Shown here: positions 6,352-44,634 of the stretch, piece by piece
Layout: each line of letters opens with the position of its first letter
How positions within the stretch are numbered: the first letter of the stretch is position 1
NCBI RefSeq assembly: GCF_028641065.1
Contig: NC_073389.1
Coordinates: 4,154,001-4,218,000 of the forward strand
Direction: 5' to 3'
From: Leucoraja erinacea
Taxonomy: Eukaryota
Length of the DNA stretch: 64,000 bases
The notes under the pieces: generated by a model
Told to the model about the DNA's origin: nothing
The model's input: the letters and a program-made list of their open reading frames with translations, nothing else
The model's database searches: none
Translations under genes and position numbers: made by a program

Positions 6352-7190
6352 ACAAGATACAAGATACAAGATACATTTAATTGTCATTTGGACCCCTTGA
6401 GGTCCAAACGAAATGTCGTTTCTGCAGCCATACATTACAAACACATAGACCCAAGACACAACATAATTTACATAAACATCCATCACATCGCTGTGATGGA
6501 AGGCCAAATAAACTTATCTCTCCACTGCACTCTCCCCCCCCCCATGTCAGAGTCAAAGTCAAAGCCCCCGGCTGGCGATGGCGATTGTCCCGCGGCCATT
6601 AAAGCCACGAAGGCCTCAGAAGCCACGTGGCTCAAGAATGGAAGGTACATTACGTATGGTAGGCATGCATTCATTCATGTGTAAGAAAGAACTGCAGATG
6701 CTGGTTTAAATCGTAGGTAGACACAAAATGCTGGAGTAACTCAGCGGGTGAGGCAGCATCTCTGGAGAGAAGGAATGGGCGAACATCGCCCATTCCTTCT
6801 CTCCAGAGATGCTGCCTCACCCGCTGAGTTACTCCAGCATTTTGTGCCTACCTTTGTATTAATTCATGTAAACCTTTGTCATTGGAGTGCAATGGTCACA
6901 TTTTGGAGTGGGACTCGCAAGAATGGCTGAGTTAGTTGTTAGAAATGTGAGCAGATAATAGTTTTGTGGCAGACTACAACGTTTTATTAAAGCCACGCCG
7001 GGTGATGCAAGGTCGCACACCGGGTCTTGGTGTCAGAGCCCCCGGCGTGCGCTCGCAGAGTCCCGCGGCCATTCCAAGCCGCGCGGGGCAGTGATGTAGG
7101 CCCCGCTCCAGGAGCTCTTCAACCCCGCAACTCGGGCGGGAGAAGTCGCCGTTGCGAGAGCCCTGAAAAGCGGTCTCCCTCCAGGGATAA
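6352..7190 (-). mobile_element. Non-autonomous LINE-tailed element interrupted by a templated duplication
   Basis: (caagata)n tail, shared cataaacatcca..ctgtgatggaagg core and GC-rich body as at 33310-33945 and 52170-53045. Confidence 0.55.
6610..6985 (+). repeat. 376-bp direct duplicate of 8401-8776
   Basis: Colinear copies with about six substitutions, all transitions. Confidence 0.95.
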
Positions 7191-7904
7191 ACTTATTATT
7201 ATTATTATTATTATTAAAAACACAGAATCATTCTCTGAACCAAAATAAAATAATTTAACTTTATTATAGTGAATATTTACTGTTGGAGAGTATTGTGTAT
7301 GAATTAGATTTAGAAAGCCACGTTACAAATAAATCTTGTAACCGCTACACAAAGTATGACAGGATTTAAAGCCAAATTAAAGATATTGAAAATATTGTAC
7401 TTGTTTGACTGAGTCGACACCAGTTGAAGTGATATCAATGAAGGAGGTATTTTTAGCTACCCTTTGATTTTAAAATGTAGTTCCTTCGTAACTGTGCTTT
7501 GTTCTTCTGTGCAGCTCCTTGAGAGCAACCGACCATTTCTCTCAAGACAATGTGCAAGTGATTCTGTTGCCTGGTTTAAATATTTTGTGGCCCGCTGTAG
7601 TTTTTGAACTGGAAATCGACCGATTCGGTGTCCACATGTCACAGAGCCGTACAGCACGGAAACAGGCCCCACATGCCCATGCCAACCAAAACGCCCTATC
7701 TACGCTAGTCCCACCTGCCTGCATTTAGCCCATAGCCCTATTCTATCTAGTAGCCTATCCAACTGTCTTTAAAACGTCAGGATAGTACTTGCCTCAACTA
7801 CCTCCTCTGGCAGCTTGTTCCACATACCACATTTCCACGGTGTGTGAAAAAATGCCCCTCAGGTTCCTATTAAATCTTTCCCCTCTCAAATTAAACCTAT
7901 GTCA

Positions 7905-8370
7905 TAAGGTCATACTTCCTGTGGCAGCTGAGGAAGCACAATCTGCCACAGGCAATGATGGTCCAATTCTATACGGCCATCGTAGAGTCTGTCCTCGCCT
8001 TCTCCATCATGGTCTGGTTTGGCTCAGCCACCAAGCACGACATCCGGAGGCTGCAGCGAATCGTCCGATCAGCTGAGAAGTTTATTGGCTGCCACCTTCC
8101 CTTCATTGACGAGTTGTACACTGCAAGGGCCAGGAAGCGAGCGGGCAGGATCATCTCTGACCCCTCTCACCCTGGCCACAAACTCTTTGAACCACTTCCC
8201 TCTGGAAGGCGACTCCGGACTGTCAAAGCTGCCACAGCCAGACATAAAAACAGCTTTTATCCACGAGCAGTAGCTCTACTCAACAGCCAAAAATCTGTAG
8301 CCTCCCTTTGATCTGGTATTTTATTTTATTTCATTCACAAATTTAAACTATAATGTTTTATTTTTAATTA
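7905..8370 (+). mobile_element. Rex1/Babar-like LINE 3' fragment
   Basis: FYTAIVESVL.FSIMVWFG...DPSHPGHKLFEPLPSGRRLR C-terminal motif. Confidence 0.8.
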
Positions 8371-8849
8371 CTTACTGTTGCAATATTTCTATCACAAACG
8401 AAGGCCTCAGAAGCCACGCGGCTCAAGAATGGAAGGTACATTACGTATGGTAGGCACGCATTCATTCATGTGTAAGAAAGAACTGCAGATGCTGGTTTAA
8501 ATCGTAGGTAGACACAAAATGCTGGAGTAACTCAGCGGGTGAGGCAGCATCTCTGGAGAGAAGGAATGGGCGAACATTGCCCATTCCTTCTCTCCAGAGA
8601 TGCTGCCTCACCCGCTGAGTTACTCCAGCATTTTGTGCCTACCTTTGTATTAATTCATGTAAACCTTTGTCATTGGAGTGCAATGGTCACATTTTGGAGT
8701 GGGACTCGCAAGAATGGCCGAGTTAGTTGTCAGAAATGTGAGCAGATAATAGTTTTGTGGCAGACTGCAACGTTTTATTTTCCACTTCACTTTAAATATT
8801 AGCTGCAAGCATATCCCTGTTGCAACTTGGTCTCTGGTTGGTGCCTGGA

Positions 8850-38772: not shown

Positions 38773-40737
38773 GAATTTCTTCCTTCAGCACGGAAACAGG
38801 CCCATTAGCCCAACTCGCCCATGCTGAACAAGATCGCCTATCTACGCTAGTCTCATTTGCCACATTTGGCCCATATCCCTCTAAACCATCAATGATTCCT
38901 TATTACCACATGTCAGTGAAATTATATATTTTTTTCATACAGATCAGTAAATTATTAATACACGCAGGCATAATCCCAAATTAAGTACAAAGTGTACAGA
39001 AATAGTCCACCGAGACAAGAATCATCAGCTTTCAGCACCACTTTCAAAGCCCTATCCATGAATCCTTTCCTATCCATGTATGTTCACCACTGCACCGCTT
39101 CTTATATGCACCATTAATACATTATTTGGACCAAGGGGAACAATATCTGTCCTCAACCTTATGCCACTGTCTCTATTTCTGAAACATGTCCACTTCCACC
39201 ATTCTCTCCTCTGGTCTTTCAAGCGACTTTTCACATCCAAGGTACACAAAAATGCTGGAGAAACTCAGCGGGTGCAGCAGCATCTGTGGAGCGAAGGAAA
39301 TAGGCAACGTTTCGGGATGATTTTACACAAGGAAATAGGCAACGTTTTGGGCCGAAACCCTTTGGGTTTCGGCCCGAAACGTTGCCTATTTCCTTTGCTC
39401 CATAGATGCTGCTGCGCCCGCTGAGTTTCTCCAGCATTTTTGTGTGCCTTCGATTTTCCAGCAGCTGCAGTTCCTTCTTAAACACCTTTCACGTCCGTTC
39501 CCTTCTGCCAGAGCAGATGGGGCATCACGGAGCTAGATTTCAGCCTGTAATCCCACAGTGCACACAGGCCTAGGCCTTCAGGCTTTTTACTGCCACTCTA
39601 CCCCCTCCTCAGTCTTCTGACAGTAGATTCTGGTGACATTAACACGACCAACATTAAACCAACAAATCTCCAGGTTGCTGGGGAAACGAGGAACTGCAAA
39701 TGCTGGAACCTAGGCCAAACACATAGTGTTGGATGATCCCAGCAGGTCAGGCAGCATCTGTGGAGGGGTCGGCCCAATGGATACACAATGGGTGTGTCGG
39801 GTTGGGACCCCCTCTTCAGACTAATGGAGTAAGGGGAAAGAAAGCTGGAAAGGAGATGGAAAGTAGAGGAAAGGAGGAGTGCAATGTGAAGCTGGAGGGA
39901 GGAATTATGGGTGGAAATAAAAGAGGAATGTGGGACTAGAGGATGGAAGCTGAGTGTATGGAGAAGGAGAAAGGAGAAAGGAGAAGGGCGACTGGGGAGG
40001 TGGGAGATGGTGGGAAAATGTGTGCACACCAGGGTGGGCTACAGAGGAATGACAAGGGGGTAGGCATGAGGGGGTCTTACTTGACATTGAAGAAATCAAT
40101 GTTCATTGCCTCTACTGTCAGAGGGAAAAAAGGTGGAAAAACAGCTGAAGAAGGGTTTCGGCCCGAAACGTTGCCTATTTCCTTCGCTCCATAGATGCTG
40201 CAGCACCCACTGAGTTTCTCCAGCAATTATGTCTACCTTCAATTTTCCAGCATCTGCAGTTCCTTCTTAAACAACAAACGTCTGTCCATGTTTTTATGTT
40301 AACAAGCCCTCTATCCTTGTGAATATATTTGTTATATATATATATATATATATATATAAAAAGTTGTTATTTTAATTATAGACCATAGACAATAGGTGCA
40401 GGAGCAGGGTATTTGGCCCTTCAAGCCAGCACTGCCATTCAATATGATCATCCCGGGAATTAACCTTGTAAACCTACGCTGCAGTCCCTCAATAGCAAGA
40501 ATGTCCTTCTTCAAATTAGGGGACCAAAACTGCACACAATATTCCAGGTGTGGTCTCACTAGGGCTCTGTACAACAGCAGAAGAATTAATTATATTTTTT
40601 GATGGAGATTTATAAAATACTAGATTGTCAGACACCTACCTTGCTAGTTACATTTTCCAAAACCTTACCATAGCCAACCAATATAATTTTCTCTTCCTAC
40701 AACTATATTTCATCATACTATTTTACAAATAGACCTT

Positions 40738-43700
40738 TAGCCCAGAGACATTAGGTTAGATGAACTAGGTACCAATGTGTGACTATGGGAGTGTGTAGGG
40801 GGGTCACCTGAAATGAACGGTCTGCCGGGTACCACCCGCTGCGTGTAGACCTGGGGGACCCCCCAAAGGGCCAAACAATGGGTGCTAAATAGATGAGTGA
40901 GGTGCCTCTTAAATCCACTACCATGGTGTGCTCACTGCCACACCTGTATCAACAACACAAACGGCAGACATTTTTCCCGCTGCTAAAGGCCCACCAGACC
41001 CCCCACAAAAGGCCTGTAAATGTGCTAGCATATAGACGAGCAAGGTACCATTCAAAAATAATGTCAAATGAACAAGTTGAGTTCATAGAGTAGAAAATGG
41101 GTTACGCCAGACAAATAATCTGCTGCACTACAGCTACCAGACACCCCAAAAATGGACACTCCAGACCCTGCTGTCCCACTAGGCTAGCCGAGATATTGTG
41201 GGTACTAGCTAAAACCAAGTTTAAATGATCTACCACACCACGTGGAATATAAAGTGACCTATGACAGAACAATTATCTGCTGCAGTGAGCCTGCCAGACC
41301 CCATAAATGGGCCCTTGGGCCAATCTAGGCTAGCCTAGATATTAAAGGTACCAGCTAAAACCAGGTTTGGATGATCAATCACAGCCTAGGAAATATAAAA
41401 TGGCCCCATGCCAGGATAATAATCGATTGCCTTGGTCCTAACAGACTCCCCAAATAGTCCCTTAATTGCCCAACTGGGGGGGGAGGGGGTCTGATAGCAC
41501 AAGGTAACAGATAATTGCTCTGGCATCGGCCATTTTGTATTTCCCAAGGTGGGATTGATCATTTAAAGCAAACATCAAACATTGATCATTTAAAGCAAAC
41601 AATGGCAAACATGTGGTCCAAAATTGACATGTTGGTCACAAGCTCATTTGTATATGGCCCAATGTATTTTTAGTGTTTATTATTAATGTACTAGTGTAAG
41701 GAATGATTCATTAAAGAATGACAGACTCAAATGTTAACCCGACCCCTAAGAAACATTTATTTTGTTATGTTACACAGTTACATTAAACCTTTAAACCTTT
41801 AAATTCGAATGATATTAACTCCAAATTGTATAGCATATTCTGTACTTCAATATTTTTACCTCAGAATAATTTTGAAAAGAAAACTGGGTCTACCGTTACT
41901 CAGCTCTTAGATGTGGCCATTTCAAAACCAACAACTGCACCAAAAGCAGTCTGAAGTTGTCTTTAGCAAAATTGGCAAAAAGTGAACAGCTGGGACATTT
42001 GTTGCAATGAGAAAAAAATTAGCTTGATAACTGTTTCTAAGTTTTATATATGTTTTAATATAGATGATATGATCTTCACAACCATGTGGAAAATTTAGTG
42101 GGTTGCGCATCGAGATGTCAAGAAAAATCACAAATATGCAGTAAAATGCTCATCTGCATTTATTTCTAGCTCATTGCGTGCTACAATTTCCCAGTAGTGT
42201 AATGGAATGGTAAACCATCATTACAGTTTACAGGACACTCCATGTACATTGTCTTACTACTAGAGGTTTGGTCATTTGCCCAGGATAATATTAGCCTGAA
42301 CTGTACTAGAAAGCTTTTAATGGGAGAACAATGTGGACTAATAATACTCTCTTTCAAAGCTTGTTCCTCCATTTGAATGTAGATAACTTTAAAAACCTAG
42401 GTCATCAAAGTTATTTTTATTAGTTTGTTTCAGGGTGGTAAACCTAACAAACATAACTAGCAAATTATCAGTTTATGAATCACTAAAAAATTCACATTAT
42501 TGTAGCAATTATCTTCTTGATCTATGAATCGAGGGAGGTAAATATTGCAAACGTTCCACTGTGATATAAGATAAGTAAATATTGCAAATGTTCCAAAATT
42601 CATACTTACAATTTGAAACACGAGACTGAATATAAAGTACAGAACAAGTATTTGCAATCTATTTGCTGACCACGTCACAGATAAAACATCCTATAGTCGT
42701 ACAAATTGATCCTGACAATAAACAACATTATTGAGTTTAATATTTTAAGCATACACTCACCGCATCACTACTGATATTGCAATTATGTCCATACTATAGG
42801 ATGTCTGATACGGCTGTCCGTAGTTTTTCTTACAGTCGGGAGATGACTCTGTAAGCTTATCAAATTAAAGTCCACCCCTATATAAGATAAATCTCCATCA
42901 AATAACATAATATTCCAGCTTAAATTGCACTCAGCCCTATAGAGTATAGTTTATTGCACCAATTCCACAGGGATTTTATATGCACTTGCTGATACTTGAT
43001 CCTAACCACGTGTCAGCCATTGTCTGTACCTCTCTGCAGGCCACGTGCTCTGGGCATGGCATTGGTTGTAACGTAAAGTGAACACTATAACTGAACCCTG
43101 CATTATAATAGCAAACTATAACTATGTAGCAAAGTAAAACAACTTACCTCAAACAGCCGTAAACAGTGATTCGTTACTGCAAAAAATTCCATCCAATCCA
43201 ATGTTGATATATTGTTTGGCTGCAGCTTGTCACCGCCTTCAGCCAAATGGCCAAATATATAAAAAGTATAACAGTTTATACCTACTATTAGCCTCTTGTC
43301 CCCCTTTTCTCATTAAAATGGGCTGATGTGGAAATGGTTGATAAAGTGGTTACATTTTTGACATGAGTCATTTTGTATCACTAGCCGAAGTTGTATACCT
43401 GGCTCAGCTCATACCTAGCCTCCTACTTGGGGCCAAGGACTTTTGGGGGGGGGGGGGGGGTGGGTCATTTTGTATTTCCCGGGCTGTGATTGATCAATTA
43501 AACCTGATTTTAGCGGGCACCTTTAATATCTAGGCTAGCCTAGATTGGCCCAAGGGCCCATTTAGGGGATCTGGTAGGCCCAATGCAGCAGATAATTGTT
43601 CTATCATAGGTCAATTTATATCCCCAAGGTGTGATAGATCATTTAAACTTGGTTTGAGTTGGTACCCACAATATCTAGGCTAGCCTAGTTGGACAGCAGG

Positions 43701-44067
43701 GTCTAGGATGTCTGGTACCTGTAGTACCAGCTGCCTATTTGTCTGGCGTAACCCATTTTGTACTCTATGAACTCAACTTGTTCATTCGGCATTATGTTTG
43801 AGTAGTACCTTGCTCGTCTATATGCTTGCCCATTTTCTAGGCCCTTTGTGGGGGGTTTTGGCGGGCCTTTTGCAGCGGGAAAATGTCTGCCGTTTGTGTT
43901 ATTGATACAGGCGTGACAGTGAGCACACCTTTTAAGTGGCACCTATTTCACCAGGCCCCTTGGGGGGTCCCCCAGGTTGATCGGATGGTAAACCAGACTC
44001 CCATTCCATTCATTACACACTCCCATAGTCACCTTTACCTAGTTCATCTAATCGCTAGCCTGGGCTG
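40738..44067. mobile_element. 3.3-kb DNA-transposon-like element with long (about 600-670 bp) imperfect TIRs
   Basis: 40740-41410 is the reverse complement of 43460-44065 (e.g. atgaacaagttgagttcatagagta.aaaatgggttacgccagacaaata); termini agcccag / ctgggct; arms contain about 160-bp subrepeats. Confidence 0.85.
41783..43281 (-). pseudogene. Candidate decayed multi-exon gene of unknown identity inside the long-TIR element
   Basis: GT-AG segments of 50, 49, 51 and 52 nt and a GC-AG segment of 53 nt; flanking frames partly open but with stops and frameshifts; AATAAA at 41756-41761 on the minus strand. Confidence 0.45.
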
Positions 44068-44634
44068 AGATTAAAATGCCAATTTCCACATCCTTAATTT
44101 TCCTGACAAGCAGAATCATCAAGCACTACAGAATGAAACAGGCCCTTCAGCCCACCTTGTCTATGCCAGACATGTTAGCATACTGGGCTAGTCCAATTTA
44201 CCCGCATTGCCCCATAGCCCTCAAAAACCTTGCGATCCATATACTGTAAATGACAAATGTCTATTAAAAGTCATTTTTATTCCACCTCTATAGATTTCTC
44301 AGGCAACTCATTTCAATAGACATCATCCTCTGAGTGAGAAAAATTGTCTCTGAGGTCCCTCTTAACACTCTCTCCTCAACATAAGTCTACGCCCTCTAGT
44401 TTTAGAATCCTCTATCCAGGGGAAATGACTGTGAGTGTTTACTTTATCCATGCCCCCTTGTGATCTTGTATACCTCTATAAGATCGCCTTCAGCCCCCTA
44501 CACTAGGAAGGAAAATGTCCCAGCCTTCCCAACACCTCTATAACTCAAGCCCGCAAGACCAATTGATTGGACATAGTTCTCCATTTCCTTTGTCCTGCAT
44601 TTCATTAATAGAATATTAATTTCTCTAAATTCAA

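What the first reader, a model, noticed from the sequence alone, without database searches (positions are those of the whole stretch)
41756..43281. Cargo of the long-TIR element looks like a decayed gene with uniform 49-53 nt mini-introns
Seen on the minus strand: GAG|gtaagt..tgcag (43147-43098, 50 nt), gcaagt..ctatag (42989-42937, 53 nt), GCG|gtgagt..gtcag (42760-42712, 49 nt), ATT|gtaagt..cacag (42609-42559, 51 nt), AAT|gtgaat..gttag (42495-42444, 52 nt). Intervening 102-nt and 63-nt segments keep frame. Peptides include GDKLQPNNISTLDWMEFFAVTNHCLRLFE and WNVCNIYLPRFIDQEDNCYNN. A stop at 41785-41783 is followed by AATAAA at 41761-41756. Established: vertebrate spliceosomal introns rarely fall below about 65-70 nt, while about 50 nt is common in nematodes, fungi and some other invertebrates. 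Inference: a transposon-borne gene with non-vertebrate architecture, possibly horizontally acquired. I cannot identify the protein, and this copy has stops and frameshifts. This is the strongest candidate for something undescribed.
Basis: partly seen in the sequence, partly recalled or inferred. Interest (0 to 1): 0.75.

Follow-up and report, generated by a model that had tools for sequence, protein, structure and literature searches.

The report
Dead transposon carrying tiny-intron fossil cargo
This is a broken copy of a known kind of jumping DNA (an Academ-type transposon) in a jawed vertebrate, and it carries a 1.1-kb stretch with about 50-base intron-like units that likely came from a former invertebrate host but gives no open reading frame even in the family's majority sequence.

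Summary
The five intron-like units and the AATAAA are at the stated coordinates. They lie in a 3.34-kb element (window 40730-44073) with long inverted arms, TAG ends and a 3-bp target duplication (13 of 15 two-ended copies). Copies are 2-8% from their majority sequence. Two copies with the same ends keep broken pieces of a transposase with a nuclease-like C-terminus, 67% identical to a Priapulus protein. The element is a non-autonomous AcademX-type derivative, and the cargo lay just upstream of the deleted transposase. Three GTRAGT donors with their best acceptor 49-51 nt away exceed chance (P about 0.002 without choosing the length), and intron interiors are AT-richer (24% vs 37% GC). The gene itself is not recoverable. 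The spliced majority has 27-33 stops per frame, with no coding trace and no homologue. Two quoted peptides come from a copy-specific deletion and a 37-nt duplication of intron sequence, and the AATAAA follows the transposase's end. Best reading: a relic spliced unit from a short-intron invertebrate host, already dead when the element spread here. Horizontal transfer is likely but unproven; no splicing evidence was obtained.

The parts
40727..40729 (.). Target-site duplication AAA, left
   Evidence: matches 44074-44076
40730..41567 (+). Inverted arm starting TAGACC, with inner sub-repeats; lies 3' of the transposase strand
   Evidence: 40756-41406 pairs with 44051-43462 at 79%, sub-repeats reach 41567; end defined across copies
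41756..41761 (-). AATAAA, likely the polyA signal of the lost transposase transcript
   Evidence: Present; lies downstream of the transposase-stop junction seen in L081 and L093
41575..42023 (-). 3' trailer that follows the transposase stop in fuller copies; some copies hold about 580 more nt at window about 41832
42024..42202 (-). 180-nt segment found only in this family, standing where the transposase gene was lost; origin unknown
   Evidence: 19 matches, all at family loci; no tblastn match to 22 transposase relatives
42203..43345 (-). Cargo with five intron-like units; directly upstream of the transposase 5' region in the inferred parent
   Evidence: Junctions in L072, L093 and L081; the same junction in contigs of runs X1, X6 and X8
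42444..42495 (-). Unit I5, 52 nt, weak donor (GTGAAT here, GTTAAT in 22 of 23 copies)
42522..42558 (-). Second copy of a 37-nt tandem duplication of the 3' half of I4 (source of WNVCNIY); lets I4 also be read as 88 nt
42559..42609 (-). Unit I4, 51 nt, GTAAGT..CACAG
42712..42760 (-). Unit I3, 49 nt, GTGAGT..GTCAG
42937..42989 (-). Unit I2, 53 nt, GC donor in 23 of 23 copies
43098..43147 (-). Unit I1, 50 nt, strongest donor GAG|GTAAGT
43461..44073 (-). Inverted arm 5' of the transposase strand; its terminus is eroded in this copy
44074..44076 (.). Target-site duplication AAA, right

Best explanation
The element is an internally deleted, non-autonomous AcademX-type DNA transposon that has lost its transposase, and its 1.1-kb cargo is likely a relic piece of a spliced gene picked up in an earlier invertebrate host with roughly 50-nt introns and likely already dead when the element spread in this vertebrate lineage. 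Shown: ends, 3-bp duplication, copy family, transposase remnants in two same-ended copies, the cargo's position upstream of the transposase 5' region, and no open spliced frame in the majority. Inferred: cut-and-paste mobilisation in trans by the parent's transposase acting on the long arms; entry by horizontal transfer; capture of host DNA between the arm and the transposase start; decay by stops and small indels before the burst. The units are predicted not to be spliced at 50 nt in this host.
For: Carrier: TAG ends and a 3-bp duplication in 13 of 15 two-ended copies. AcademX makes 3-4 bp duplications and encodes a nuclease (PMC10045372, passage). L081 and L086 hold transposase pieces 39-72% identical to 1400-1590-aa relatives, with SDTDV and HAFTGCD motifs (reading them as XPG/FEN-like is recalled). 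Metagenome relatives have the same TAG...SCCCAGA end and a 3-bp duplication in 5 of 6. Position: L072 keeps more of the transposase 5' flank and L093 keeps the transposase C-terminus, so their common ancestor held cargo plus gene. Introns real: P about 0.002 without length choice; GC contrast P=0.0008; same strand as the transposase, antisense 0. Foreign: the transposase's own first intron is 86 nt; none of 10 related elements or loci scanned shows a comparable array apart from microsatellite-driven counts in L159; the nuclease domain groups with Priapulus and two metagenome proteins (SH-aLRT 98, quick tree), apart from this genome's two other families. Dead early: five stops checked are fixed in 17-25 of 18-26 copies.
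Against: No trace of coding: best spliced frames are no longer than shuffles; exon composition P=0.16-0.97 while 3 of 4 transposase controls score P<0.05; the fewest lesions needed for an open path is 9 against 10.2 in shuffles (P=0.34). So 'gene' rests on splice signals and GC contrast alone. Decay deep enough to erase coding should also erode donors, yet three are perfect. No homologue or donor genome was found. Only 6 of 22 transposase hits carry organism names, and vertebrate transposons are rarely annotated as proteins, so the invertebrate link may be sampling. The tree is the quick version with no clade test. No single copy holds cargo and whole transposase together.
Confidence: 0.45

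Rival explanations
1. The units are introns of a non-coding 5' leader of the transposase mRNA, kept spliceable in a short-intron host without any reading frame.
For: Same strand as the transposase and directly upstream of it. TATAAA lies just before the first segment. Splice sites survive while no frame does. The full-length relative L148 also has a 1.1-kb 5' region with a GTAAGT donor and a YAG 53 nt on.
Against: The spliced 826-nt leader would hold 24 ATGs against 16.5 expected, with no depletion. Five introns in a leader are unusual (own knowledge). Four shorter relatives have only about 0.5-0.75 kb between the element end and the transposase match, and no such sites on that strand.
Confidence: 0.22
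2. The pattern is chance in AT-rich element DNA, picked out afterwards.
For: Two of five donors are non-canonical in nearly all copies. An equally strong donor lies on the antisense strand. No coding trace or homologue.
Against: P=0.002 without length choice, and each donor's best acceptor falls at 49-51 nt where the per-donor chance is 0.16. 0 of 190 own-genome tiles reach 3. The GC contrast is a separate signal.
Confidence: 0.2
3. The parent element carried a working second, intron-rich protein gene, and the copies seen here descend from a damaged sub-lineage.
For: Several segments have a frame with only 1-2 stops. Two stops in segment 2 are TGA, which could come from CpG decay. A second gene in some Academ lineages is recalled, not checked.
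Against: L072 and L093, the copies nearest the parent's layout, match the stop-bearing majority at 88-94%. No homologue among 1.84 billion representatives for one frame or in word searches for two frames.
Confidence: 0.1

Closest known systems
AcademX (Academ superfamily DNA transposons with a nuclease domain)
   Same: 3-bp target duplication, TAG termini, inverted arms over 600 nt, and an about 1400-1500-aa transposase with a C-terminal nuclease-like domain in fuller copies; estimated parent size near the 5.6-kb mean of bivalve Academ elements (PMC10294476, passage) plus cargo.
   Different: This copy is non-autonomous. It carries a 1.1-kb cargo with about 50-nt intron-like units upstream of the transposase, not seen in the related elements retrieved.
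AcademH
   Same: Same superfamily; a distant relative (P0021) and, below cut-off, the Priapulus protein match DUF6589 (the DUF6589-Academ link is recalled).
   Different: AcademH makes 9-10 bp duplications and encodes a helicase (PMC10045372, passage); here the duplication is 3 bp and no helicase was seen.
Pack-type non-autonomous DNA transposons (Pack-MULE, Pack-CACTA; PMC8903248, search listing only)
   Same: Non-autonomous inverted-repeat element moving a piece of intron-bearing DNA between its arms.
   Different: Described in plants with pieces of the same host's genes. Here no source gene exists in the host search, capture is inferred, and it predates the loss of the transposase.
Polinton/Maverick
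   Same: Long inverted arms in vertebrate genomes.
   Different: Those have about 6-bp duplications and integrase, polymerase and capsid genes (recalled); none seen here.

Membership tests
AcademX | 3-4 bp target-site duplication (PMC10045372) | tested here: met
   3 bp in 13 of 15 two-ended copies, and AAA/AAA in the window
AcademX | TAG...CTA termini and long inverted repeats (recalled; the defining paper PMC7165386 was not held) | tested here: met
   Ends; arms of about 650 nt plus sub-repeats
AcademX | Academ-type DDE transposase in the parent | tested here: inconclusive
   Remnants in L081 and L086 match 1400-1590-aa proteins that lie in TAG-ended elements. No Academ profile is in the libraries; DUF6589 is over cut-off only for the distant P0021 and found nothing in this genome. 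The catalytic triad was not mapped.
AcademX | XPG-like nuclease domain C-terminal to the transposase | tested here: inconclusive
   SDTDV and HAFTGCD motifs are present in L086 and recalled as XPG/FEN-like; no Pfam or PDB match confirmed it
AcademH | 9-10 bp duplication and helicase | tested here: not met
   3-bp duplication; no helicase family in the remnants or relatives scanned
Spliceosomal intron-containing protein gene | Canonical donor and acceptor pairs above chance | tested here: met
   3 of 5 units are canonical; P about 0.001-0.002
Spliceosomal intron-containing protein gene | Open frame after splicing | tested here: not met
   27-33 stops per frame in the majority; best path no better than shuffles
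Spliceosomal intron-containing protein gene | Junction reads | not testable with these tools
   No raw RNA reads were offered
Pack-type element | Cargo traceable to a cellular gene | tested here: inconclusive
   No source found in this genome or in protein collections; invertebrate genomes could not be searched

The most novel reading that the evidence does not exclude
An AcademX transposon jumped from a marine invertebrate into a vertebrate lineage carrying a captured gene piece whose 50-nt introns still record the donor's intron size, a fossil postmark that could name the donor. A 37-nt duplication then lengthened one intron to 88 nt, into the range vertebrates can splice.
Probability: 0.35. 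Interest if true: 0.55.

Novelty: new member of a known kind. Interest (0 to 1): 0.33.

Why it matters
If the reading holds, cargo with donor-sized introns gives a handle, independent of transposase trees, on where a horizontally moved element came from, and shows gene capture by an Academ element. My searches did not find that in print, but the main Academ paper and Repbase were not readable. It also gives a small natural test of how 50-nt introns fare in a vertebrate. It does not reveal a new protein or a working system: the cargo is dead in every copy seen.

Tried and rejected
Cargo as part of the transposase: no tblastn match to 22 relatives (best E 0.68). Homologue searches, all blank: Pfam on 13 window ORFs and 12 read-through frames of two copies; word searches on two frames; phmmer over 1.84 billion proteins on one frame, 0 hits; ESM Atlas on two ORFs, best 0.77, unusable; phages; Rfam; 80 metagenome loci (best E 0.09). 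Antisense and the remaining frames were not run through the large searches. Large inserts in L061 and L064 are secondary Gypsy-type retroelements, not parent sequence. The 70% region of L092 is an interleaved mosaic, likely an assembly fault, and was dropped from divergence counts. Expression: no RNA holder listed. Four contig sets, two guessed to be RNA, showed no 49-53 nt skip, and some contigs bridge the units unspliced; contigs of uncertain kind cannot show absence of splicing. The five units do not resemble each other by eye, so an Introner-like origin was set aside without a formal test. No full-length parent was found among about 65 stretches fetched or by transposase searches. Earlier scan notes held nothing. 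No structure was predicted, as there is no credible protein.

Full report
Observation. The five units, the TAA and the AATAAA are at the stated places on the minus strand. They lie between long inverted arms (40756-41406 against 44051-43462, 79%). A genome search gave 64 matching pieces, with only the best 40 of 49 candidates scored, so this is a lower bound. I aligned 54 pieces from 28 loci. The 27 pieces over 500 nt are 2.5-8.4% from the majority, mean 5.1%, and they look like independent decay from one master.

Are the introns more than chance? The majority has the same five sites. Three have GTRAGT. I2 is GC in 23 of 23 copies and I5 is GTTAAT in 22 of 23. Three GTRAGT donors with a YAG 45-56 nt on compare with 0.25 in shuffles (P=0.001; antisense 0). 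Because that length range was chosen after the fact, I repeated the test with a scored acceptor anywhere in 40-130 nt: P=0.002. For each donor the best acceptor is the one at 49-51 nt, against a per-donor chance of 0.16. In the window copy the best I4 acceptor is instead the duplicated one at 88 nt. 0 of 190 tiles from this genome and 4 of 562 metagenome tiles reach three, and 3 of those 4 involve short tandem motifs. Interiors are 24% GC against 37% (P=0.0008). Against this, an equally strong donor sits on the antisense strand, and a 64-kb window offers about 80 such tiles. I put the chance that the units are real relic introns near 0.8.

Is there a gene? Not a recoverable one. The spliced window has 22-26 stops per frame and the spliced majority 27-33. 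A search over all donor-acceptor paths found frames no longer than in shuffles, with or without tolerance for TGA. Amino-acid composition gave P=0.16-0.97 for six cargo segments, while 3 of 4 transposase controls gave P<0.05. An open path needs 9 lesions against 10.2 in shuffles. The five stops checked are fixed across copies. The first quoted peptide depends on a 10-nt deletion private to this copy. The second is a 37-nt duplicate of intron sequence, found in 15 of 26 distinct copies (L078 and L099 counted once, L062 does not cover the site). The 102-nt segment is 111 nt in the family, and another segment is 176 nt, so frame-keeping is not general. All homology searches were blank.

The carrier. 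The element runs 40730-44073, starts TAGACC, and is flanked by AAA on both sides. 13 of 15 two-ended copies have a 3-bp duplication. AcademX makes 3-4 bp duplications and encodes a nuclease, while AcademH makes 9-10 bp and encodes a helicase (PMC10045372, passages). TAG ends and long arms as Academ marks are recalled; the defining paper was not held. Two copies with these ends, L081 and L086, keep broken transposase pieces on the same strand as the cargo. The L086 piece finds 22 proteins at 29-67% identity. The six with names are all invertebrate: Priapulus 67%, Holothuria 59%, two sea urchins, a crab and a firefly. Metagenome contigs with such proteins hold whole elements ending TAGACC or TAGAGC, with SCCCAGA a few bases in, and 5 of 6 have 3-bp duplications. 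L148 is a 6.7-kb complete example. No Pfam or PDB family confirmed the domains, so membership rests on ends, duplication and overall layout.

Where the cargo sat. In L072 and L093 the cargo's end (window 42203) runs into a short stretch that in L081 lies about 110 nt before the transposase ATG. L093 then jumps to the transposase C-terminus and L072 to the 3' trailer. Neither can derive from the other, so their ancestor held the cargo and both ends of the gene. Contigs from three other organisms cross the same junction, and two of them run on into the transposase C-terminus (X1, X6, X8). In L081 and L093 the transposase stop leads into the sequence at window 42023 and below, so the AATAAA at 41761 likely ended the transposase transcript. 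The inferred parent is arm, cargo, transposase, trailer, arm. The window's subfamily lost the gene and was moved in trans. The DNA is held by 20 listed runs in 12 studies under ten organism codes, with shares of 0.27-0.47 for 18 of them. I laid 8 of the 23 listed runs.

Origin. The host is a jawed vertebrate (RAG1); its repeats look like those of cartilaginous fish (recalled, untested). Vertebrate short introns peak at about 76 bp, the likely minimum, against about 50 bp in C. elegans (PMC9438311, passages). The human threshold is 65 nt (PMC4463651, search listing). The transposase's own first intron is 86 nt. A quick tree of 47 nuclease-domain rows (rows aligning over 150 residues or fewer left out; no clade test) puts this family with Priapulus and two metagenome proteins (SH-aLRT 98), inside an invertebrate and metagenome clade, away from this genome's two other families. 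This fits horizontal entry from an invertebrate, but vertebrate transposases are under-annotated, and Academ traces also occur as old fossils in amniotes (PMC9004415, passage).

Mechanism. Most likely (0.45): a piece of a spliced gene from a short-intron host was captured between the arm and the transposase start, decayed, and rode along. Next (0.22): a spliced non-coding leader of the transposase mRNA, which explains intact sites without a frame but would hold 24 ATGs. Chance is 0.2, and a live second gene in an unseen parent is 0.1. The identification of the carrier is much firmer, about 0.9.

Novelty. The carrier is a new or uncatalogued member of a known superfamily; Repbase and Dfam could not be checked. 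Eight paper searches were run; seven concerned Academ, and their listings showed no report of mini-intron cargo in Academ. Other papers seen: PMC10294476 and PMC10799480 (passages), PMC8903248 and 10.1101/656579 (listings only). No supplements were read. The finding is a real oddity with value as a possible marker of the donor, but it is a dead relic and not a new gene system.

Noticed in passing
L063:2800-3390, L067, L080, L091, L093, L094, L100, L072, L081: About 580 nt missing from the window's subfamily at window about 41832; AT-rich, with a short inverted pair at its ends and TGTTA microhomology. L072 and L081 join into it, so it may be ancestral trailer or an old nested element.
   Followed up: partly
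window 42522-42595: The 37-nt duplication gives intron 4 a second acceptor at 88 nt, above the vertebrate minimum; it is in 15 of 26 copies, including those nearest the parent layout.
   Followed up: partly
window about 42300-42355, minus strand: A possible sixth unit of 51-56 nt with a dead donor (GAGAGT; GT in 1 of 22 copies).
   Followed up: partly
L118-L136: At least two other, distant families of the same transposase type in this genome (35 matches, 25-32% identity), several with open frames of 250-390 aa.
   Followed up: partly
L061:3430-7390 and L064:2866-5505: Gypsy-type LTR retroelements inserted into copies of the element; L064 keeps an 879-aa pol-like frame.
   Followed up: no
L092:3573-4378: Interleaved mosaic of two offset parts of the element at 70% identity, likely an assembly or polishing fault.
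   Followed up: partly
L083:582-693, L139, L082, L145, L144: Miniature derivatives of 112-1259 nt made almost only of the arms, with intact 3-bp duplications.
   Followed up: no
L187:3217-6122 and L174, L175, L181, L188, L204, L206, L207: Non-autonomous relatives in metagenome contigs with arms 66-79% like this family's; L187 carries unrelated filler between transposase stubs.
   Followed up: partly
L160:13470-15582: A 2-kb self-complementary repeat array inside a TAG-ended element.
   Followed up: no
window 6607-8697: Near-identical direct copies 1791 nt apart (99% over 300 nt), possibly a recent local duplication or an assembly echo.
   Followed up: no
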